From Flavobacteriales bacterium (GTDB taxonomy: Bacteria; Bacteroidota; Bacteroidia; Palsa-965), in assembly GCA_040377305.1 (NCBI GenBank), contig JBEIPA010000007.1, positions 1-64,000 of the forward strand: DNA of 64,000 nt, written 5' to 3'. Numbering within the stretch: the stretch's first letter is position 1; every line of letters begins with the position of its first letter. A model generated the notes under the pieces. The model saw only the letters and a list, made by a program, of their open reading frames with translations. It ran no database searches and was not told the origin of the DNA. The position numbers and the translations under genes were made by a program. Below are positions 14,238 to 23,662 of this stretch, piece by piece.

Positions 14238-15443
14238 CTATTCCACCTCGCAAACAAACAGCTTACTCTCCTTATTTCCTTTCAGAGAAAAAAGAGATTG
14301 GAATCCAACTTCTGCAATGATGAAATTCACTGCGGGCGATTTGTATTCTTCAACCACATTACGGATTTCGATATCCTTCAACTCCGACTTGTCGGTGAAG
14401 CGAATGTAAACTTTGATTGAGAAGTCGTTGTCGAGTAAAGCCTTTCCGGGATTTTTTCCGTGGTTGTTCTTTTCCAACTTCTTCAGCTTGCGATAACCGT
14501 ACTTGTAATCGTAGGTTAATGCGGAAACATCAGATAGAACCGCACTACCGGTCGGGTGACTTCCAGCGCCTTTACCCACGAAAGTTTGCTTGCACGAATA
14601 AGCGCCTTCTACTTCGATTGCGTTGTACTCGTACAATACTTTGAAAAGTTCATCGTCCTGTTTTACAAATCGCGGCATCACGTACACACGGAATTTATCC
14701 CCCGATTTTGCTGCGCTACCAATGAGTTTTATGCGTAAACCTTTTTCTTTCGCATAACGAATATCGCTGAAGGAAATGTTTTGTATACCGAGATTCAAAA
14801 CGTCATCCGGCTTGAGCACAACTCCAAACGCATGCACATTGAGCAGAATGGTTTTGAACAATGTGTCATAACCGGCAACATCCATCCATGGATCCAATTC
14901 AGCAAACCCGCTATCCTGCGCATCTTTCAGAACAACACCGTAATCTTTATTCTCCAATTCCATTCGGGTGAGAATATAGTTCGTTGTTCCGTTGAGAATG
15001 CCCCGCAGACTGCTCAACAACTCATTGTCGTAATATTCTTCGAGTGTACGGATGATGGGAATACTTCCGCCAGCCGATCCTTCGTAGATCAACGCCTTGC
15101 CGGTTTCAACCTGTATGCGATACAACTCATCGAAGTATGTAGCCAGCATTTTTTTACTCGCGCTCACTACGTGCATGCCATTGCGCATCGCTGTACTTGC
15201 AATTCGGTATGCTTCTTCGGTATCCGTGATCATTTCCACCACCACATCAACATCTTTTCGGTCGAGAATATCTTTCGACTCATAAGAAAGCAGCGACTGA
15301 TCAACACTTCGCTTCTTCGTGCGGTCTTTCACACCAATGCCGTGGATATTCGCCTGCAACACTTCAGAATGGTTCAACACATCGTACAATCCTTGTCCAA
15401 CGCAACCGAATCCAAACAACGCTACTGATATTTTATTTTCCAT
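14238..15443 (-). CDS. hom: Homoserine dehydrogenase
   Basis: GFGCVG Rossmann motif, YEGSAGGSIPII, GILNGTTNYIL, GKGAGSHPTGSAVLSD. Confidence 0.93.
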   Translation of the reverse strand: MENKISVALFGFGCVGQGLYDVLNHSEVLQANIHGIGVKDRTKKRSVDQSLLSYESKDILDRKDVDVVVEMITDTEEAYRIASTAMRNGMHVVSASKKMLATYFDELYRIQVETGKALIYEGSAGGSIPIIRTLEEYYDNELLSSLRGILNGTTNYILTRMELENKDYGVVLKDAQDSGFAELDPWMDVAGYDTLFKTILLNVHAFGVVLKPDDVLNLGIQNISFSDIRYAKEKGLRIKLIGSAAKSGDKFRVYVMPRFVKQDDELFKVLYEYNAIEVEGAYSCKQTFVGKGAGSHPTGSAVLSDVSALTYDYKYGYRKLKKLEKNNHGKNPGKALLDNDFSIKVYIRFTDKSELKDIEIRNVVEEYKSPAVNFIIAEVGFQSLFSLKGNKESKLFVCEVE

Positions 15444-15447
15444 GGCT

Positions 15448-15455
15448 CAAATGTA
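15448..15455 (-). promoter_or_regulatory. Bacteroidota -7 promoter element for hom
   Basis: Minus-strand TACATTTG matches TAnnTTTG, 4 nt before the ATG. Confidence 0.5.
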
Positions 15456-15509
15456 AACTTTGGTTGTATTAACTCATTGACTCTTTCTATGCAATTATTG
15501 ATATGATGG

Positions 15510-15602
15510 ATATGTAATCGCTGATTCACGGTTCTCCCCTTTTTCCGAAGGGACTCCTTCGGAGGGGGAGTTAGAGGGGCGAGTGAATCAGCGATTACAT
15601 AT
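15510..15602. repeat. Nested hairpin: perfect 20-bp inverted repeat enclosing a REP-like palindrome
   Basis: atatgtaatcgctgattcac (15510-15529) / gtgaatcagcgattacatat (15583-15602); inner tccgaagg-gact-ccttcgga. Confidence 0.8.
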
Positions 15603-16245
15603 GTAGTCCGCACTCTGTCTTCGACCGATTCACCCATCGTCCTTCTCTACCTCGTCCTTTCACCGTACAATGAATGCAACCCACGGAATTGAAACCGTGT
15701 TTCAGTAGCGGATGTTCCGGTAACGAATGTTTGATTATGTATGCTTTCGCTTCTTCATCACTCATATCGATGATCGGATAGAACTTCAGAATTCCGCTCT
15801 TCTCTTCGAAAATGTGCATCTGTTTTCGATAGCTGTTCTGACTTTGCATCAAACCGCTAACCCATACTTCATAACCTGCTTTGATTTTATCGAGAGGTTC
15901 AACTTTATTGATCGAGCAACACAAATCAGGATCCTTACTCCAGGTTTGATCACTGTTGGTGAAATTGTTCTTCCACTCTTCCGGTGTCACGGTGTGAACG
16001 GTAAGTCCAAGCTGTTTCGTCAGCAGCTCTTTGTATTCGAGTGTTTCTGCGAAGTGATAAGTTGTGTCCAGAAAGATCACGTCCTGATTTTTGTTGGCTT
16101 CACTGAAGATGTTGAGTAACACAGCCGATGTTGTTCCGAATGAAGACGTGAGCAGAACCTTGTCGAAATCAACATACAATTGCTTCACGCGTTCAATGGG
16201 CGTGAGGTTGATGTATTTGTTATTTAGTTCCTGTAGGTTCTTCAC
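15595..16245 (-). CDS. cysH: APS/PAPS reductase (Fe-S type)
   Basis: SSFG, FLDTTYHF, CCSINKVEP, SVGCIHCT, REGRW, ECGLH; start set at the GTGA overlap with the upstream gene. Confidence 0.92.
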   Translation of the reverse strand: MKNLQELNNKYINLTPIERVKQLYVDFDKVLLTSSFGTTSAVLLNIFSEANKNQDVIFLDTTYHFAETLEYKELLTKQLGLTVHTVTPEEWKNNFTNSDQTWSKDPDLCCSINKVEPLDKIKAGYEVWVSGLMQSQNSYRKQMHIFEEKSGILKFYPIIDMSDEEAKAYIIKHSLPEHPLLKHGFNSVGCIHCTVKGRGREGRWVNRSKTECGLHM

Positions 16246-17789
16246 AGTAGTACGGAAAGGAGATTCTTGAGACTTACAATGATGATCGCTATAGCAACTA
16301 CAATCAGACCGGTGCGAACAGGAATTTTGGAAGTCAGATAAGCCGCAATCGGAGCAGCAATTACTCCCCCAATAACAAGCCCCGTAATTTCCTGCCAATG
16401 TGTAATTCCCAGAAAGATGAAGAACGTAAATGTGCTCGTGAGTGTAACGAAGAACTCAGCCAACGACACCGAACCCACAGTGTACTTTACATTTCTTCCT
16501 TGTGCGATGAGGGTTGATGAAACAATCGGTCCCCAGCCTCCGCCACCAATGGAATCCAAAAATGCGCCGAAGAAACCGAGGAGCCCAATGCGTTTTACTT
16601 TCCGCTTCTCTTTGAGTTTCTTGATGGCTTTCGTGAGAATTATTCCTCCCAGAATCAATGTGTAGACGGAGACAAATGGTTTTACGTAGACAGCATATTC
16701 TTCCAGACTTGAAAGCACATAAGCACCAATTGCTGCACCGATGATTCCCGGAATCAACAAATGACGAAAGAGCTTACCGTTTACATTTTTAAACTTCAAG
16801 TGGCTCAATCCGGACGCTCCTGTTGTAAATACTTCGGAAGCATGCACACTTGCACTCGTTGCCGCAGGAGAAATTCCGAACGACATCAGAAACGTGGATG
16901 CTGTAACTCCATACGCCATGCCGAGTGAACCGTCAACCATCTGCGCGATGAATCCTGCCGCTACGCAAATCAGCAAGCGAGAGTCAACCTGATCGTAAAC
17001 TGTGCCGGCATATCCGCCGATTGTTTCAAACGGAATAAGACTGAACAGCAGATGTCCGACCACCATCAGACCCAGTGCCGCGAAACCAAATAGCGACCAG
17101 TATTTCCAGGTTCGCTTTTTGCGTTCAACAAGCTCGCCGGCGAGGTGCGGCTGCAGCGAAATAATATTTTTGTTCTTATTGAGAACAGCAGTGACTTCAT
17201 TGAGCACACGGACTTTTTCCGCGAAATCTCCTTTCAGATGTTCACGAAGTTCATGCAGATTCTCCAGCGTCTGCTGACTTTCTTCCGGAATTGATTCGGC
17301 AAGAATTTCTTTCAGTCGCTTGGTAAACGTTGGCGATTTTCCGTTGGAAGAAATGGCAATTTTCAAATCACCTTTCCGCACAACAGACGACAAGTAGAAA
17401 TCGCAGTACGCTGGTGTGTCGGCAACATTGACGAGGAGATTTCTCTTATGCGCTTCAAGAACAAGTTGATTCACCAGATCAAAATCATTGACCGCAATGA
17501 AAACGATATCCTGCTCGTCGAAGTCATCGTTAGTTACTGCGCGCTCTTCCAGAGAAAGATTCGGATATTGTTCCGCAAGCTTTCGTATTTCAGTCTTTAT
17601 CGTTTTGCCAACGAGCTTTACCTGTGTTGCCGGACTATTTCCGAGTACTGCATGAAGTTTTTCTGCGGCAACGTTTCCACCACCGATGACAAGCAAGCGC
17701 AAATCTTCCAGTTTCAGAAAAACGGGGAAGAGCTTGTTGATGCCGGAAGTTTCGGAGGCAACGTCTGCAGAAATTTCTTCAGTATTCAC
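16242..17789 (-). CDS. Fusion: precorrin-2 dehydrogenase/ferrochelatase (SirC/Met8-like) + TauE/SafE (TSUP) transporter
   Basis: FPVFLKL, VIGGGNVA, VNVAD..CDFY, KIAISSNGKSP; then AGFIAQMVDGSLGMAYG, DSIGGGGWGP and multiple TMs. Confidence 0.88.
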   Translation of the reverse strand: MNTEEISADVASETSGINKLFPVFLKLEDLRLLVIGGGNVAAEKLHAVLGNSPATQVKLVGKTIKTEIRKLAEQYPNLSLEERAVTNDDFDEQDIVFIAVNDFDLVNQLVLEAHKRNLLVNVADTPAYCDFYLSSVVRKGDLKIAISSNGKSPTFTKRLKEILAESIPEESQQTLENLHELREHLKGDFAEKVRVLNEVTAVLNKNKNIISLQPHLAGELVERKKRTWKYWSLFGFAALGLMVVGHLLFSLIPFETIGGYAGTVYDQVDSRLLICVAAGFIAQMVDGSLGMAYGVTASTFLMSFGISPAATSASVHASEVFTTGASGLSHLKFKNVNGKLFRHLLIPGIIGAAIGAYVLSSLEEYAVYVKPFVSVYTLILGGIILTKAIKKLKEKRKVKRIGLLGFFGAFLDSIGGGGWGPIVSSTLIAQGRNVKYTVGSVSLAEFFVTLTSTFTFFIFLGITHWQEITGLVIGGVIAAPIAAYLTSKIPVRTGLIVVAIAIIIVSLKNLLSVLL

Positions 17790-18526
17790 TTCGCCGCCTC
17801 CTTGGGTTTAGGTGCAAGCGTGAACTGATAGATAATTCTTCCGTTGTGAAACTCATCCACGACTGTGCTGTTTCGTTGCAGATACAGGTATAAATAGGTC
17901 AGTTGAATACTGTGGTTGGCATTGAATTTATAACCAACTCCAGCCCACGACCGATTCTGATCGAACGCAGAAAAACCATTAGTTTTTTGGTAAACGAAAA
18001 ATTCATTTCCGGCAATCAGGAAAAGCGGAGATGGTCTTTCTGCACTTCCAAACGAGTACGTGTAATCAACACGCAATCGCAAGCGGAAGGAATGAAAGGT
18101 GAAATTATCGGCAAGTTCAATACCGGCATATTCCTTAATGAAACGCTGTTCAAAACGCGCTCGTGGATAAATCACATGGTGTGAATTCGGTTTGAATTTA
18201 TAACCGACTTCCTGCCACGGTCGTAATTCGGGGCGCGCAGGAAGTTCGTTAGGGTTGGGATAGAGCTGCCAATAGGAAATGCCCGGTGACAACAGCAATC
18301 CCTTTTTGCTTTTCCACGTGGCACAGGGTCGTATCGTCCATTGGAAAATATCACCATCGGTGTATTCATAACGAAATTGTGCATCCAGCCACGCCGACCA
18401 ACTTTCGTTGAATTTGTATTCACCCAAAAGTCCAGTCCACACCAGACTGCGTGTGTTCACAACGCGATCTTGCGCTGAACTGCCTAATGAACTAACTAAA
18501 GCAATCATTACGAGTAACTTTTTCAT
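17786..18526 (-). CDS. DUF2490-like outer-membrane barrel (paralog 2)
   Basis: Signal peptide, ELRPWQE, RARFEQRF, RLRLR, GNEFF, FDQNRSWAGVGY. Confidence 0.8.
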   Translation of the reverse strand: MKKLLVMIALVSSLGSSAQDRVVNTRSLVWTGLLGEYKFNESWSAWLDAQFRYEYTDGDIFQWTIRPCATWKSKKGLLLSPGISYWQLYPNPNELPARPELRPWQEVGYKFKPNSHHVIYPRARFEQRFIKEYAGIELADNFTFHSFRLRLRVDYTYSFGSAERPSPLFLIAGNEFFVYQKTNGFSAFDQNRSWAGVGYKFNANHSIQLTYLYLYLQRNSTVVDEFHNGRIIYQFTLAPKPKEAAK

Positions 18527-18579
18527 ACACACCTTCTTGCTGAAAATTGCAACGCGAAGGTACGTTTTGGGTGTGAAAC

Positions 18580-19326
18580 TTATTTCTGAGAATCGTCAAT
18601 TTGCTGTCGGGTTTGCCCAGTGAATTGTAGTGTTAACCGAATCACGTGGAATTGATCAAAAATAGTACGGGCCCGTTGCTGATAAATGTGGAGATACGTG
18701 AGTTGCGCAGCGAAAGACGCAGTGATCTTGTATGCGAATCCTACCCAAATGCGATTTTGATCATGTGATGTAAAACCGTTTTCGCGACGATGAAACATGA
18801 TTTCGTCTCCAAGCACGAGGGACCATCTTCGGGTTCCTGAATCGCCCAAGGAATAGAAGTACTCCGCACGAAACCTCAGCCGATAAGTGTGAAAGTTAAA
18901 TTCATCAGCGAGTTCAGTACCGTCATACTCTTTAAAGAATCGTTGTTCAAAACGAACACGTGGATAAAAGCTGTGATGAATTCCGAAATCAAATTTCCTT
19001 CCCGCTTCCTGCCACGGTCTGAGCTCCGGTCGCGATGGGCGTCCGTTGGGATTTGAATAGTGAAGGAATGCACAACCACCCGCTGTTAACTGAATTCCGA
19101 ATGCGTTTTTGTATTGCAAACCGCTCCGTATGCCCGATTGGAAAATGTCACCGTCTGTTGTTTCAATGCGAAACAATGCATCGTTCACGATAGACCACTT
19201 CTCGTTGAGCTTGTAGTGTAGTGTTACCGATCCCCAGAACAAGTTGCGCGTATTGACCGTTCGCGATGTTTGAGCGGGAAGGAATGTTGTGATGAGCAAG
19301 GCCAGCACAACCAGGTACTTTTTCAT
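18580..19326 (-). CDS. DUF2490-like outer-membrane barrel (paralog 1)
   Basis: Signal peptide, ELRPWQE, RVRFEQRF, RLRFR, GDEIM, DQNRIWVGFAY. Confidence 0.8.
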   Translation of the reverse strand: MKKYLVVLALLITTFLPAQTSRTVNTRNLFWGSVTLHYKLNEKWSIVNDALFRIETTDGDIFQSGIRSGLQYKNAFGIQLTAGGCAFLHYSNPNGRPSRPELRPWQEAGRKFDFGIHHSFYPRVRFEQRFFKEYDGTELADEFNFHTYRLRFRAEYFYSLGDSGTRRWSLVLGDEIMFHRRENGFTSHDQNRIWVGFAYKITASFAAQLTYLHIYQQRARTIFDQFHVIRLTLQFTGQTRQQIDDSQK

Positions 19327-19333
19327 TTAGTCC

Positions 19334-19969
19334 TCAAAGATTTGGTTGTGGAGTCGTTCGCAGATAAGATTTGATGCGTGTGTATCCTTTCGGAAACTTC
19401 GCAGCAATTTCTTCGTCTTTAACTGCCGGCACAATTATTACATCATCGCCATGTTTCCAATCGGCTGGTGTGGCAACACTATAGTTTGCGGTGAGCTGAA
19501 GTGAATCGATCACACGAATGAGTTCATCGAAATTTCTTCCCGTGCTCGCTGGATAAGTGATGGTCAGTTTTATTTTCTTGTCAGGACCAATCACAAATAC
19601 AGAACGTACCGTGAATTTCTCACTGGCATTCGGATGAATCATATCGTAAAGGGTCGCAACATTTCGATCAGAATCCGCAATGATCGGAAAGTTCACCGTC
19701 GTATTCTGGGTTTCGTTAATGTCTTTAACCCAGCTGATGTGCGACTCAAGCGGATCAACACTCACAGCAAGCACTTTCACCCCGCGCTTGTCGAATTCGG
19801 ATTTAAGCTTTGCGGTGCGTCCAAGTTCGGTTGTGCAAACCGGTGTATAATCGGCAGGATGTGAAAACAAAACACCCCAACTGTTGCTTAGCCATTCGTG
19901 GAAGTTGATTGTTCCTTCTGTTGTTTGAGCGCTGAAGTCTGGCGCAAGATCTCCTAATCGTAGTGACAT
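19334..19969 (-). CDS. 1-Cys peroxiredoxin (Prx6 family)
   Basis: FSHPADYTPVCTTE, TVRSVFVI, YPASTGRNFDE, ATPADW. Confidence 0.95.
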   Translation of the reverse strand: MSLRLGDLAPDFSAQTTEGTINFHEWLSNSWGVLFSHPADYTPVCTTELGRTAKLKSEFDKRGVKVLAVSVDPLESHISWVKDINETQNTTVNFPIIADSDRNVATLYDMIHPNASEKFTVRSVFVIGPDKKIKLTITYPASTGRNFDELIRVIDSLQLTANYSVATPADWKHGDDVIIVPAVKDEEIAAKFPKGYTRIKSYLRTTPQPNL

Positions 19970-19993
19970 GTTATTTGGTTTTAAGGGTTTGTG

Positions 19994-20764
19994 CTAATTG
20001 AGTAATTGATTCTCCAGCGAAAGTACGTAGGCTGCTTGAGGATTCTTGCGAACAACCTCACCAATGACAATGACAGCGGGCGACTTTATTCCTTCCTGCT
20101 TGACTACATCAACGATTGTATCGACAGAACCAATGGCAGCGTTTTCTGTCGGAAGCGATCCGTCCTGAATTACCGCAACAGGCGTAGAGCCTTGTCCAAA
20201 CTTCTGAAACACATTTACAATTTCAGGAAGCTTTGCAAGACCCATCAATACGATGACAGTTGCTTTTGATTGCGCGGCGAGTTTGAAATCTTCCGGAAGT
20301 TTTCCTTCGCTGTTTCTTCCGGTAAGAACCCAGAAACTTTCTGTTACACCACGATGCGTTACGGGAATTCGTTGCAAGGCCGGAACACCAATTGAACTGG
20401 TGATTCCCGGTACAATATCTGTCGGAATATTAAACTGCTCCACATATTCGAGTTCTTCACTTCCGCGTCCGAATACAAATGAATCACCGCCTTTCAAGCG
20501 AACAACGTGTCCGTGGGTGAAAGCATAATCAACAAGTAGCGTGTTTATCTGTTCTTGCGGGTACGCATGGTGACCTTCGCGTTTTCCCACGTAAATTTTC
20601 TTCGCATCAATGGGCGCGTACTTGAATATTTCGGGATTAACGAGTGCATCATAAAGAATTACGTCTGCTTCACTAAGTGCATTAATTCCTTTTACGGTGA
20701 TCAAATCCGGGTCTCCGGGGCCTGCACCTACGAGTGTTACTTTGGGGAAAATATGTTTTGACAT
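19994..20764 (-). CDS. cobA: Uroporphyrinogen-III C-methyltransferase (siroheme synthesis)
   Basis: LVGAGPGDPDLIT, VILYDALV, VVRLKGGD, VPGITS, IPVTHRG; start set at MSKHIFPK. Confidence 0.93.
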   Translation of the reverse strand: MSKHIFPKVTLVGAGPGDPDLITVKGINALSEADVILYDALVNPEIFKYAPIDAKKIYVGKREGHHAYPQEQINTLLVDYAFTHGHVVRLKGGDSFVFGRGSEELEYVEQFNIPTDIVPGITSSIGVPALQRIPVTHRGVTESFWVLTGRNSEGKLPEDFKLAAQSKATVIVLMGLAKLPEIVNVFQKFGQGSTPVAVIQDGSLPTENAAIGSVDTIVDVVKQEGIKSPAVIVIGEVVRKNPQAAYVLSLENQLLN

Positions 20765-20781: not shown

Positions 20782-20802
20782 TGACAGGTCTCCGACCTGA
20801 CA
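20782..20802. promoter_or_regulatory. Palindrome upstream of cobA (second copy of the motif upstream of the sulfite reductase)
   Basis: tgacaggtc-tcc-gacctgaca; 20 of 21 bases match 23082-23102. Confidence 0.7.
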
Positions 20803-20875: not shown

Positions 20876-20923
20876 TCACATGCACATACAACATCGCAGT
20901 TGGCGAGACTGCCATCCAATCAT
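20876..20923 (-). CDS. Putative leader peptide 2, MIGWQSRQLRCCMCM
   Basis: atg att gga tgg cag tct cgc caa ctg cga tgt tgt atg tgc atg tga; five consecutive Cys/Met codons, located between sulfite reductase and cobA. Confidence 0.65.
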   Translation of the reverse strand: MIGWQSRQLRCCMCM

Positions 20924-20948
20924 CCGATCATCTAATAATCCTATCATC

Positions 20949-23075
20949 TCAATTCAGTGTTGGATCTATTACAAATGTTTGTTTTTCCAGTTCCGGGATA
21001 GAATCAAGAAACAAGCGCGCTTCATTGATATACTTGATCGCAAATTCCTTCTCGGGCTTGTTCAACGAGATTTGTGTCACGAGCTCTTTGAATGTCACCG
21101 GAATCAAAAGCTCCAGTTGAAAGTGCTTGTCAAAATCATGTATGATTCCATGTTGTGTATTCACTTGTACATCACGTTTCAGCAAAAGCGCTTTGGCAGC
21201 GTGAATAAATGCATTGTACGCTTTATACGTTGCGTCATTGTAGCGACCCGCTGAGAAATTCTCATGGGCAGCTTGTAACGCATCTTTTGCCTCGAAGAGT
21301 AGGGTTGCGGTCAAATCAATTTTCACCCCGGCACATTCTCCGATTCCGATTGCAGTTGCGTACCGCTCTTCCTGTCCCCAGTCAATGAACTCTTGTGCTT
21401 TCACATCGTGTGTTGAAGAAAATGCTTTGAGCAACTGATAGAAGTAGTCTTTGCCTTTGCGATCGTAGTACGCAATGAAATCTTCGGACTGATATTTCAA
21501 TTGGGAAAAATCCGCAAGCAAAGTGCGCAACACCGCAGTGGCCCGCTTCGAAGGAAATTTCAGGATCTTGTCGGCAATCCTGCCTTCACCATTTCCTGAA
21601 ATTCCTCCGCCGAGCAGAAGTTGTAAAGCGGGAACCACATCATTACCCGACTTTACAGAACTGCCGTGAAATCCGATTGACGCAACCGCGTGTTGTCCGC
21701 AACTGTTCATGCAACCACTGATTTTTATTGAAAGATCTTTCTGCGCTGCGAATTGCTGAAATTCAGTTTGAATCACATTTTCCAATGCAGCAGATACACT
21801 AGTGCTGTTTGAAATTGCCAGGTTGCACGTGTCTGTTCCCGGGCAGGAAGTAATATCTGCGAAGGCGTTGGCGCCAACTTCGGCAAAACTATTGGGGTTC
21901 AGTTCGCGATAGAGTGCAGGTAATGCAGTTTCATGAACATACCGAAGTAGCAAGCTTTGTCCGATTGTAACGCGCACATCATCGGCAGCGTATTTCTCAG
22001 CGATGGTTGCGAATACACGCACCCGATCCGAAAGAATGTTTCCTTGCGGAATCTTTACAAATACACCGTACCATCCTTGCTGTTTCTGTTCAAAGGTGTT
22101 CGCTGATTTCCACGCCTGAAATTTCTCATCATTCGTCACACGAAAAGTTGTGAATGCTTGCTGCAGAACCTTAGGGGTTGATTCTTCCGCGACCTCAATT
22201 TTCTGTTTCGTGTGCAACAATGCGCCCTTCTCGATTTCAGTCAAACGCAATACTTCTTCAATGCCGAGTTTCGCAACGAGATACTTCAATCGCGCTTTCT
22301 GACGATTGTTTCTTTCTCCGTGACGATCGAAGACACGGATCAAAGCCTCTGAGAACGGAATCAATTCATCGACCGGAAGAAATTCAAACGCAATGTGCGC
22401 CGGAATCGGTTGTGCACCGAGTCCACCTCCCAGCAGGACTTTAAATCCTCGGGTGATTTTTCCATCAATGATTTCCACTTTCGGAATGAAACCGAGATCG
22501 TGAATGAAGCTGATTGCTGTATCGTTGTCGGATGAAGAAAACGAAATCTTGATTTTTCTTCCGAGATCCTGCTGAATCGGATTGCGCAGGAAGTGACGGA
22601 ACAGCGCATTTGCGTACGGCGTGATATCGAATGGTTCGTTTGGATCAATTCCCGCAAGAACAGAACCGGTGATATTACGCACCGTGTTTCCGCAAGCTTC
22701 ACGCAAAGTGAGTTCATCGCGCTCAAGTTCTGCCCACAATTGCGGTGTACGATCAAGACTCACGAAATGAAACTGCACATCTTGCCTTGTGGTAAGGTGA
22801 AGATTTCCGGTTGAGTACTCATCACTCAGATCAGCAAGCCGCCGCAGTTGCACGAAGGAAAGTTTTCCATGAGGAACTTTGATGCGAACCATGTTCACGC
22901 CTTGCTGACGCTGCCCATACACACCACGCGCCAGACGCAGTGCACGGAATTTCTCCGGATCAATTTTGCCTTCCTGGAAAAGTTGAATCTTCTCCGCAAG
23001 TTGAGCGATATCTTTTTCGATGATCACTTGTCCATTTACCGCCGGACTTTCTAATTCTGTTCTGAAGCTTTGCAT
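20949..23075 (-). CDS. Ferredoxin-type sulfite/nitrite reductase hemoprotein with C-terminal HEPN-like domain
   Basis: RLARGVYGQRQ, HLTTRQD, EACGNTVRN, SCPGTDTC and SGCMNSCGQH siroheme/Fe-S ligands; C-terminal AYNAFIHAAKALLL..NTQHGII; start MQSFRTE. Confidence 0.92.
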   Translation of the reverse strand: MQSFRTELESPAVNGQVIIEKDIAQLAEKIQLFQEGKIDPEKFRALRLARGVYGQRQQGVNMVRIKVPHGKLSFVQLRRLADLSDEYSTGNLHLTTRQDVQFHFVSLDRTPQLWAELERDELTLREACGNTVRNITGSVLAGIDPNEPFDITPYANALFRHFLRNPIQQDLGRKIKISFSSSDNDTAISFIHDLGFIPKVEIIDGKITRGFKVLLGGGLGAQPIPAHIAFEFLPVDELIPFSEALIRVFDRHGERNNRQKARLKYLVAKLGIEEVLRLTEIEKGALLHTKQKIEVAEESTPKVLQQAFTTFRVTNDEKFQAWKSANTFEQKQQGWYGVFVKIPQGNILSDRVRVFATIAEKYAADDVRVTIGQSLLLRYVHETALPALYRELNPNSFAEVGANAFADITSCPGTDTCNLAISNSTSVSAALENVIQTEFQQFAAQKDLSIKISGCMNSCGQHAVASIGFHGSSVKSGNDVVPALQLLLGGGISGNGEGRIADKILKFPSKRATAVLRTLLADFSQLKYQSEDFIAYYDRKGKDYFYQLLKAFSSTHDVKAQEFIDWGQEERYATAIGIGECAGVKIDLTATLLFEAKDALQAAHENFSAGRYNDATYKAYNAFIHAAKALLLKRDVQVNTQHGIIHDFDKHFQLELLIPVTFKELVTQISLNKPEKEFAIKYINEARLFLDSIPELEKQTFVIDPTLN

Positions 23076-23081
23076 TTGTAT

Positions 23082-23102
23082 TGTCAGGTCTCCGACCTGA
23101 CA
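23082..23102. promoter_or_regulatory. Perfect palindrome 6 nt upstream of the sulfite reductase start
   Basis: tgtcaggtc-tcc-gacctgaca. Confidence 0.7.
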
Positions 23103-23114
23103 TGGTTTTAGTTT

Positions 23115-23165
23115 GTGATGTCGGGATCCCAATCCCGACGGTGATGTCGGGATCCCAATCCCGAC
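23115..23165. repeat. Two tandem copies (26-bp period) of a REP-like hairpin
   Basis: gtgatgtcgggatcccaatcccgac twice; core gtcgggat-ccca-atcccgac. Confidence 0.8.
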
Positions 23166-23175
23166 ATTTACTCAG

Positions 23176-23246
23176 AGGTCTCGGGCGGAATTGAACCGCC
23201 ATATCAAGTTTTGCAGACTTGTGCCTAACCATTCGGCCACAAGACC
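23176..23246 (-). tRNA. tRNA-Cys (GCA), CCA not encoded
   Basis: GGTCTTG/CGAGACC acceptor stem, D-arm GCCGAATGGTTAGGC, anticodon arm CAAGT-CT-GCA-AA-ACTTG, T-arm GGCGG-TTCAATT-CCGCC, U discriminator. Confidence 0.96.
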
Positions 23247-23297
23247 AGTTTATTGTTTCACTAATTTTTCCTTTGGGAATCGCGAGAGCGTAGAAAT

Positions 23298-23332
23298 AAA
23301 AAAGCCTCCGCGGTTCTATCCGGGAGGCTTTT
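23298..23332 (-). terminator. Intrinsic terminator of the Met/Cys attenuator
   Basis: mRNA aaaagcctcccgg-atagaa-ccgcggaggcttttttattt. Confidence 0.88.
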
Positions 23333-23355: not shown

Positions 23356-23451
23356 TCACATTCGTGTATCACCTCCCGTACTGCACATCATGCAGCAGCA
23401 CATCATACACATCATGTATGACTGAGAGTTGATATTACGAGTGATTTTCAT
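23356..23451 (-). CDS. Attenuator leader peptide 1, MKITRNINSQSYMMCMMCCCMMCSTGGDTRM
   Basis: 31 codons with 11 consecutive Met/Cys codons; codons 25-27 (acg gga ggt) contain cgggagg, complementary to cctcccg in the terminator 5' arm. Confidence 0.88.
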   Translation of the reverse strand: MKITRNINSQSYMMCMMCCCMMCSTGGDTRM

Positions 23452-23499: not shown

Positions 23500-23532
23500 C
23501 AAAGATATGCGCGAATATTTCAGTAAAACAAA
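23500..23532 (-). promoter_or_regulatory. Bacteroidota housekeeping-sigma promoter of the sulfur operon
   Basis: Minus strand TTTG-N21-TATCTTTG (-33/-7 consensus), 48 nt upstream of the leader ATG. Confidence 0.75.
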
Positions 23533-23662
23533 TTTCGTCGTAAAAAAAGTTGAGTTCGCGTGATAAAAGGCGGAACTGAACAACATAATTATAGCATGTA
23601 TTCAATTGATAAGCAGCGTATTGCGGCGGACCAAAAATATTTTGAATTCGGGAGTTGGACAG

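What the first reader, a model, noticed from the sequence alone, without database searches (positions are those of the whole stretch)
23115..23300. tRNA-Cys is the first cistron behind the attenuator
Seen: an intact tRNA-Cys(GCA) starts about 50 nt downstream of the terminator on the same strand, and I see no TAnnTTTG element in between. It is followed by two tandem hairpins and then the reductase. Inference: the tRNA whose charging the leader senses is itself induced by Cys/Met limitation, a feedback loop. Excising the tRNA would also give the enzyme mRNA a new 5' end, capped by the 23115-23165 hairpins and decoupled from the leader.
Basis: partly seen in the sequence, partly recalled or inferred. 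Interest (0 to 1): 0.78.

Follow-up and report, generated by a model that had tools for sequence, protein, structure and literature searches.

The report
Spare cysteine tRNA behind sulfur attenuator
A second, intact cysteine tRNA gene sits directly behind a short methionine/cysteine-rich leader gene and its terminator at the head of a sulfur-assimilation operon, so the bacterium likely makes extra cysteine tRNA only when sulfur amino acids run short, a control of a tRNA gene that I did not find described.

Summary
Confirmed. tRNA-Cys(GCA) at 23246-23175 lies 52 nt behind the terminator of a Met/Cys leader attenuator, with no TAnnTTTG between. It is a second copy: a housekeeping tRNA-Cys with its own promoter motif sits on C30, 57/72 identical. 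All 5 divergent tRNA-Cys copies in 27 genus genomes occupy this slot, two of them with no sir behind. They are 60-85% alike yet keep the cloverleaf, GCA and U73. Only 5 of 21 leader loci carry the tRNA, scattered on the tree. A genome-wide scan found the same layout in Lachnospiraceae and Abditibacterium. Best reading: sulfur shortage lets transcription read through and makes spare, chargeable tRNA-Cys with the enzymes (inferred, no RNA data). The 'capping' hairpins are dispersed repeats, not part of the device. This scan noted related layouts before on other DNA (Acidobacteria, phages, other Bacteroidota). Ten literature searches found no attenuator-controlled tRNA gene.

The parts
23500..23534 (-). 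Bacteroidota-type promoter motif (TTTG box near 23534-23527; -7 box TAnnTTTG at 23507-23500); predicted
   Evidence: sequence; positions; a -7 motif lies 208-451 nt upstream of the terminator end at all 21 leader loci
23356..23451 (-). 31-codon leader ORF (P0001) with ten Met/Cys codons in a row (codons 13-23 hold MMCMMCCCMMC)
   Evidence: the only Met/Cys-rich mini-ORF with a terminator in the genome; conserved in relatives
23372..23378 (-). antiterminator 5' arm; predicted to pair with the 5' arm of the terminator
23298..23332 (-). intrinsic terminator hairpin with U tract
23175..23246 (-). tRNA-Cys(GCA), second copy; G1-C72, U73, A15:U48; CCA not encoded
23115..23165 (-). two exact 26-nt copies of a dispersed REP-like palindrome; not a conserved part of the device
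23082..23102 (-). 21-nt palindrome, near-identical copy before cobA (about 20782-20802)
20949..23075 (-). nitrite/sulfite reductase with C-terminal HEPN domain (sir), 708 aa
   Evidence: Pfam NIR_SIR, NIR_SIR_ferr, HEPN; NCBIfam matches all below cut-off
20876..20947 (-). second 23-codon Cys/Met mini-ORF starting 1 nt after the sir stop
14238..20764 (-). rest of the predicted operon: cobA, 1-Cys-type peroxiredoxin, two DUF2490, sirohaem synthase-TauE fusion, cysH, homoserine dehydrogenase
   Evidence: seven of the eight operon proteins have Met at or below 2.0% and five at or below 1%, genome median 2.6%

Best explanation
A second tRNA-Cys gene lies 52 nt behind the terminator of a Met/Cys-codon leader at the head of a sulfur-assimilation operon, and it is likely transcribed only when ribosomes stall in that leader and the predicted antiterminator lets RNA polymerase read through. 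Steps: (1) shown in sequence: promoter motif, leader ORF, terminator, tRNA, sir operon on one strand with no promoter motif before the tRNA. (2) Predicted: a ribosome paused at codons 12-21 leaves the antiterminator arm free, which captures the terminator's 5' arm; past codon 21-22 the arm is covered and the terminator forms. (3) Inferred: RNase P and RNase Z cut the tRNA out of the read-through transcript, CCA is added, and the single CysRS charges it through U73 and GCA. (4) Inferred purpose: the spare tRNA tops up the tRNA-Cys pool during sulfur shortage, steers scarce and newly made cysteine towards translation, and so helps ribosomes clear Cys codons, those of the leader included, which damps the operon again (negative feedback).
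For: Second copy beside a housekeeping gene with its own -7 motif. In 27 genus genomes, 27 tRNA-Cys pattern hits: 22 housekeeping-type, 5 divergent, and all 5 lie 5-52 nt behind this attenuator, including G020 and G023, where sir was not found and a peroxiredoxin follows. No other tRNA type occurs at any of 21 leader loci. The five copies are 60-85% alike, against a mean of 84% among 28 housekeeping-type copies from across the class, yet with the housekeeping copy added 97.6% of cells pair, 12 of 21 pairs show double changes (0/500 shuffles), and GCA, G1-C72, U73 are invariant. U73 and GCA are the major Cys determinants (PMC9976931, passages). Exact TAnnTTTG within 114 nt: 16 of 30 cluster-first tRNA genes of this genome, 0 of 5 attenuator copies. 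Contigs from three other DNA runs carry terminator, tRNA and sir in this order; in two the spacer is replaced by unrelated DNA. Stall simulation switches at codon 21-22 and holds in 8 of 8 loci tried. RNase P RNA, RNase Z, a CCA-type nucleotidyltransferase domain and one CysRS are present. The same layout recurs in 4 Lachnospiraceae and 1 Abditibacterium genome before amino-acid ABC transporter, nitrogenase-like or sulfatase genes.
Against: No RNA evidence of any kind was available. 16 of 21 leader loci lack the tRNA, among them the sister genome G015 with an identical leader peptide, so it is dispensable. The five carriers are scattered on the RpoB tree (5 changes; 500 of 500 shuffles as low), which fits repeated loss of a weakly useful gene as well as repeated gain. 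The G024 copy has lost G19 and C56 and missed Rfam's gathering score. At equilibrium the terminator beats the antiterminator (-31.8 against -29.6 kcal/mol), so the switch depends on folding order; antiterminator covariation is modest (83% paired, 8/500 shuffles). More tRNA cannot raise flux if cysteine supply alone limits it (inference). The Lachnospiraceae copies carry A73 or G73, so they may not be CysRS substrates and may not be the same device. G022 showed no housekeeping copy in its assembly. 14 of 30 ordinary tRNA genes also lack the exact promoter motif.
Confidence: 0.57

Rival explanations
1. Processing tag: the tRNA is kept mainly so that RNase P and RNase Z cut the operon mRNA free of the leader and set its 5' end and stability; the tRNA product matters little.
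For: CCA is not encoded, so an RNase Z-type cut behind the discriminator is expected. Lachnospiraceae copies keep the fold but not U73. A stable hairpin follows 8 nt behind the tRNA here.
Against: Any tRNA would serve, yet 5 of 5 in the genus are Cys and keep GCA and U73 through 15-40% divergence. The hairpins are dispersed repeats, missing at three of four other carriers and present in tRNA-less G015.
Confidence: 0.12
2. Passenger or fading relic: a tRNA-Cys entered this spot once or a few times, is co-transcribed by accident, and is being lost.
For: Patchy presence (5 of 21), scattered on the tree, one copy degenerate. The spacer also collects repeats.
Against: Compensatory changes in every variable stem; all extra copies in one slot; the layout recurs in two other phyla; no close phage donor, best full-length match 71-74%; no integrase-like frame noticed next to the locus (by eye).
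Confidence: 0.15
3. Signal or decoy: the induced tRNA stays mostly uncharged (or is charged with another amino acid) and so amplifies the starvation signal or relieves stalls at Cys codons by misreading.
For: Extra tRNA under amino-acid shortage would be largely uncharged (inference). In Lachnospiraceae 14 of 14 sulfur-locus copies have A73 or G73 and 8 of 14 a G4.U69 pair, while 6 of 6 housekeeping copies have U73.
Against: The copy in this window and its four relatives keep U73 and GCA. G4.U69 alanylation is described for vertebrate, not bacterial, AlaRS (PMC9976931, passages).
Confidence: 0.1
4. Constitutive spare: the tRNA has its own non-consensus promoter and ignores the attenuator.
For: 14 of 30 ordinary tRNA genes here lack the exact motif too.
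Against: Spacers of 5, 11 and 19 nt in three genomes leave no room behind the terminator; the spacer is replaced in two related contigs while terminator and tRNA persist.
Confidence: 0.06

Closest known systems
Ribosome-mediated transcription attenuators (trpL, hisL, thrL, pheM of E. coli; recalled; mechanism also in passages of bioRxiv 10.1101/834739)
   Same: Leader ORF with a run of cognate codons, competing antiterminator and terminator, biosynthetic genes behind.
   Different: The first gene behind the terminator is the cognate tRNA itself; specificity is Met plus Cys; no Rfam leader family reaches its threshold here.
uORFC-8-2 Cys-codon attenuator candidate before cysS in Rhodobacterales (PMC8632094, passages)
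   Same: Cys codons in a uORF with a terminator, proposed to raise Cys-tRNA output when charged tRNA-Cys is short.
   Different: It controls the synthetase, not the tRNA; two Cys codons, not a Met/Cys run; other phylum.
Polycysteine sORF attenuators of mycobacteria (bioRxiv 10.1101/834739, passages)
   Same: Cys-codon run senses charged tRNA-Cys and controls sulfur genes; shown by experiment.
   Different: Acts on translation initiation without a terminator; no tRNA gene downstream in the passages read.
tRNA-Cys genes in SepRS/SepCysS operons (PMC5424206, PMC8762117, passages)
   Same: A tRNA-Cys gene clustered with sulfur-metabolism genes.
   Different: There the tRNA is the scaffold for Cys synthesis; no SepCysS above cut-off here; 'attenuat' occurs 0 times in PMC5424206.
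Stress-induced cryptic tRNA operon (L-array) of cyanobacteria (PMC8421152, search listing and start of abstract only)
   Same: Spare, normally quiet tRNA genes linked to translational stress.
   Different: A large multi-tRNA array; here one cognate tRNA under a codon-specific leader.

Membership tests
Ribosome-mediated transcription attenuator | short leader ORF with a run of codons for the pathway's amino acids | tested here: met
Ribosome-mediated transcription attenuator | intrinsic terminator behind the leader | tested here: met
   -20.3 kcal/mol hairpin plus U tract; consensus hairpin in 16 loci; the simple scan missed it because of a bulge
Ribosome-mediated transcription attenuator | antiterminator that overlaps the terminator and is freed by a stall in the run | tested here: met
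   in silico only; 83% paired, 3 double changes, 8/500 shuffles
Ribosome-mediated transcription attenuator | read-through rises on starvation and depends on leader translation | not testable with these tools
   no RNA run listed
Canonical bacterial tRNA-Cys | cloverleaf with 7-bp acceptor stem, short variable loop, intact D and T loops | tested here: met
Canonical bacterial tRNA-Cys | GCA anticodon and U73 | tested here: met
   determinants from PMC9976931
Canonical bacterial tRNA-Cys | matured and cysteinylated in vivo | not testable with these tools
   enzymes present; activity untested
T-box riboswitch | T-box stem I, specifier loop and antiterminator bulge | tested here: not met
   no T-box match at gathering score or at E<=10
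tRNA-dependent Cys synthesis (SepRS/SepCysS) | SepCysS gene in the genome | tested here: not met
   best 37 bits against cut-off 365
tRNA-dependent Cys synthesis (SepRS/SepCysS) | SepRS gene in the genome | not tested
   not searched by its own family
Phage- or array-borne tRNA | close match to a phage tRNA, or place within a tRNA array | tested here: not met
   only tRNA in 64 kb; best full-length phage matches 71-74%
REP-like dispersed palindrome (hairpins 23115-23165) | short palindrome in many, often tandem, copies across the genome | tested here: met
   8 copies at <=2, 14 at <=3 mismatches, tandem on C21 and C49; 'REP-like' is a descriptive, recalled label, no mobilising enzyme was sought

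The most novel reading that the evidence does not exclude
Bacteria of several phyla have independently put a dedicated tRNA-Cys under a Cys/Met leader attenuator, so that the ribosome adjusts the supply of the very tRNA it waits for: a codon-specific feedback on tRNA gene expression, with a chargeable U73 form in Bacteroidia and a non-canonical A73/G73 form in Lachnospiraceae that may read Cys codons with another amino acid during sulfur starvation.
Probability: 0.35. Interest if true: 0.82.

Novelty: new variant of a known kind. Interest (0 to 1): 0.63.

Why it matters
Bacterial tRNA genes are usually thought of as controlled in bulk by growth rate and the stringent response (established knowledge). 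A single tRNA gene switched by stalling on its own codons would be amino-acid-specific control of tRNA supply, and it makes an old question testable: does extra tRNA help or hurt when its amino acid is scarce? E. coli is reported to degrade most tRNA early in starvation (PMC5314770, abstract), which is the opposite move. The natural pairs with and without the tRNA behind an identical leader (G000 and G015) and the recurrence in other phyla give ready comparisons.

Tried and rejected
Expression: no RNA holder listed, so no read-through or 5'-end test; only DNA contigs were laid. Class-wide pattern search, 401 genomes: too loose, 71 genomes matched; 28 tRNA-Cys from the 30 loci returned had no leader, the other hits were judged from their first 80 letters only; the layout was not found outside the genus in those searched, nor in the 8 other genomes of the order. 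Lachnospiraceae family sample: 2 of 251 genomes, both already known. Viral contigs: 1 hit, a chance match without leader. Phage donor: none close. Abditibacterium order: 12 of 28 genomes had a tRNA-Cys hit, the 11 others are housekeeping-type without leader. My pattern needs A38 and so misses C38 tRNA-Cys such as the Lachnospiraceae housekeeping form; the genome-wide count of 8 is a lower bound and cannot see a tRNA placed further down an operon. Other leaders with a cognate tRNA in this genome: the His leader on C17 has none. Idea that the tRNA serves Cys-rich operon proteins: rejected, they are Cys- and Met-poor. One search used a wrong pairing register and was redone. PMC4695836 (passages) held nothing on regulated tRNA genes. 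I recall predictions of T-boxes before some clostridial tRNA genes; searches did not bring them up, so this stays unverified and could lower novelty.

Full report
Observation. The minus strand reads: promoter motif TAnnTTTG at 23507-23500, a 31-codon ORF at 23451-23356 with a run of Met and Cys codons, a terminator at 23332-23298, tRNA-Cys(GCA) at 23246-23175 (ARAGORN; Rfam 65.8 bits), palindromes at 23165-23115 and 23102-23082, and a sulfite/nitrite reductase gene from 23075. Behind it follow cobA, a peroxiredoxin, two DUF2490 genes, a sirohaem synthase-TauE fusion, cysH and homoserine dehydrogenase. These proteins are poor in Met (0.4-2.0% against a median of 2.6% over 3459 ORFs) and mostly in Cys, as expected of genes needed when sulfur is short (established knowledge, recalled). 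No TAnnTTTG with up to one mismatch lies in the 114 nt before the tRNA.

The attenuator. A genome-wide scan found only this Met/Cys-rich mini-ORF with a terminator. Folding the RNA left free by a ribosome at successive codons gives the antiterminator (probability 1.0 before the terminator's 3' arm is made) for A-site codons 12-21 or 12-20, and none from codon 22 or 21 on, for 12 or 15 covered bases. The full RNA prefers the terminator, -31.8 against -29.6 kcal/mol, so the switch would be kinetic. The same switch appears in 8 of 8 loci tried. Across 16 aligned loci the terminator is the consensus hairpin; the antiterminator helix is 83% paired with three double changes (8 of 500 shuffles), which is modest support. 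No Rfam leader or T-box family matches.

The tRNA is a spare. The genome has 52 tRNA calls, two of them Cys. The C30 copy has a -7 motif 65 nt upstream and is identical or near-identical across the genus; the window copy matches it at 57 of 72 positions, with compensating changes in three stems and in the 15:48 pair. One CysRS, RNase P RNA, RNase Z and a CCA-type nucleotidyltransferase domain are present; SepCysS is not found above cut-off.

Relatives. Of 27 genus genomes, 23 gave tRNA-Cys pattern hits: 22 housekeeping-type rows (one from unpublished G012, on which nothing else rests) and 5 divergent rows. All five (G000, G020, G022, G023, G024) lie behind the Met/Cys attenuator, at 52, 19, 44, 5 and 11 nt. 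In G020 and G023 sir was not found and a peroxiredoxin gene follows, so the tRNA tracks the attenuator, not sir. Of 21 leader loci examined (17 genus, 4 sister genus; G012 and five in-gene matches dropped, G019 added), 5 carry a tRNA, always Cys. The five are only 60-85% alike, while 28 housekeeping-type copies from across the class average 84%. Yet in an alignment with the housekeeping copy 97.6% of cells pair, 12 of 21 pairs change on both sides (0 of 500 shuffles; related sequences inflate this) and GCA, G1-C72 and U73 never vary. U73 and GCA are the major Cys determinants (PMC9976931, passages). The G024 copy has lost G19 and C56 and missed Rfam's threshold. On an RpoB tree of 27 genomes the carriers need 5 changes, no fewer than shuffled labels; the sister genome G015, with the same leader peptide, lacks the tRNA. 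One old gain with many losses, or several gains, both fit. Contigs from three other DNA runs hold terminator, tRNA and sir in order; in two the 51-61-nt spacer region is replaced by 80-85 unrelated letters. An exact -7 motif lies within 114 nt of 16 of 30 cluster-first tRNA genes here but 0 of 5 attenuator copies.

Other phyla. One scan of 185,579 genomes for a Met-Cys-Cys-Cys run 111-171 nt before a tRNA-Cys gave 8 loci, and all 8 show leader, terminator and tRNA: three genus members, four Lachnospiraceae (before an amino-acid ABC transporter or a nifB/nifX/nifH-like cluster) and one Abditibacterium (before sulfatase-maturation, sulfotransferase and sulfatase genes). A metagenome scan added one Lachnospiraceae-type contig. 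The pattern is narrow, so this is a lower bound. The Lachnospiraceae copies differ in kind: A73 or G73, mostly a short D loop and an A.G mismatch in the anticodon stem, while their housekeeping copies have U73 and C38. Ten more such genes from a 101-genome Roseburia sample lie mostly in sulfur loci but not behind this leader type.

The hairpins. 23115-23165 is two exact 26-nt copies of a palindrome found 8 times at two and 14 times at three mismatches, in tandem elsewhere too. G015 has them without a tRNA; of the other four carriers three have no stable hairpin in the next 70 nt and one has a different one. They may protect this mRNA by accident but are not part of the conserved design.

Mechanism. 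Most likely (0.57): Cys/Met shortage stalls the ribosome, the antiterminator forms, and the read-through transcript yields a mature, CysRS-chargeable spare tRNA along with the sulfur enzymes; the larger pool steers cysteine to translation and shortens stalls, also in the leader. The layout and identity elements are shown; switch, maturation, charging and purpose are predicted or inferred. Rivals: fading passenger (0.15), processing tag (0.12), uncharged signal or decoy (0.10), own promoter (0.06).

What is known. It works like a classical leader-peptide attenuator and meets every feature testable here. Closest in print: a Cys uORF attenuator candidate before cysS (PMC8632094, passages), mycobacterial polycysteine attenuators (bioRxiv 10.1101/834739, passages), and tRNA-Cys genes in SepRS/SepCysS operons (PMC5424206 and PMC8762117, passages). 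PMC5314770 (abstract) reports tRNA decay in starvation. Ten searches found no paper on an attenuator-controlled tRNA gene; the library lacks most subscription journals and I read no supplements. Earlier unchecked notes of this scan report a Cys leader before prx and a spare tRNA-Cys in Acidobacteria, codon-matched leaders before phage tRNAs, and spare tRNA-Cys in Bacteroidota sulfur operons; I did not test those and they are not independent support.

Verdict. Real, selected for tRNA structure and Cys identity, rare and patchy, recurring across phyla, untested in RNA. New variant of a known kind; interest 0.63.

Noticed in passing
window 20947-20876 (-): A second 23-codon mini-ORF ending in a Cys/Met run starts 1 nt after the sir stop. 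A similar Cys-containing mini-ORF starts 0-4 nt after the sir stop in 9 of 14 genus loci in which the stop was located; no terminator noticed behind it.
   Followed up: partly
L158-L167, L068, L070, L073, L074 (Lachnospiraceae): A family of atypical tRNA(GCA) genes: A73 in 12 and G73 in 2 of 14, G4.U69 in 8 of 14, up to three copies per genome (G726), mostly next to cysK-, metK-, metN- or nifB-like genes (named by eye from ORF starts); housekeeping copies have U73. May not be CysRS substrates.
   Followed up: partly
L158, L161, L166: Instead of a Met/Cys leader, a small ORF resembling the YezD/DUF2292 type (recalled, not scanned) and a conserved hairpin with U tract precede the atypical tRNA.
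   Followed up: no
L006-L013, L015, L071 upstream of sir or prx: Many relatives have two Met/Cys leader-terminator units in tandem; this genome and its close clade have one.
   Followed up: no
G000:C7:88552-97060 (-): A 15-gene tRNA array without tRNA-Cys and without TAnnTTTG motifs, probably on a mobile element.
   Followed up: no
window 23102-23082 and about 20802-20782 (-): The same 21-nt palindrome, beginning with an ATG, lies just before the starts of both sir and cobA.
   Followed up: partly
G000:C49:72006-74952 (+): cysC-cysD-cysN lie apart from this operon with no Met/Cys leader found.
   Followed up: partly
G000:C17:118828 (-): His-rich leader with terminator before a hisG-like gene; no tRNA behind it.
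   Followed up: no
L101 (G023) and L098 (G013) behind the terminator: A few bases resembling the sir start remain where sir itself was not found.
   Followed up: no
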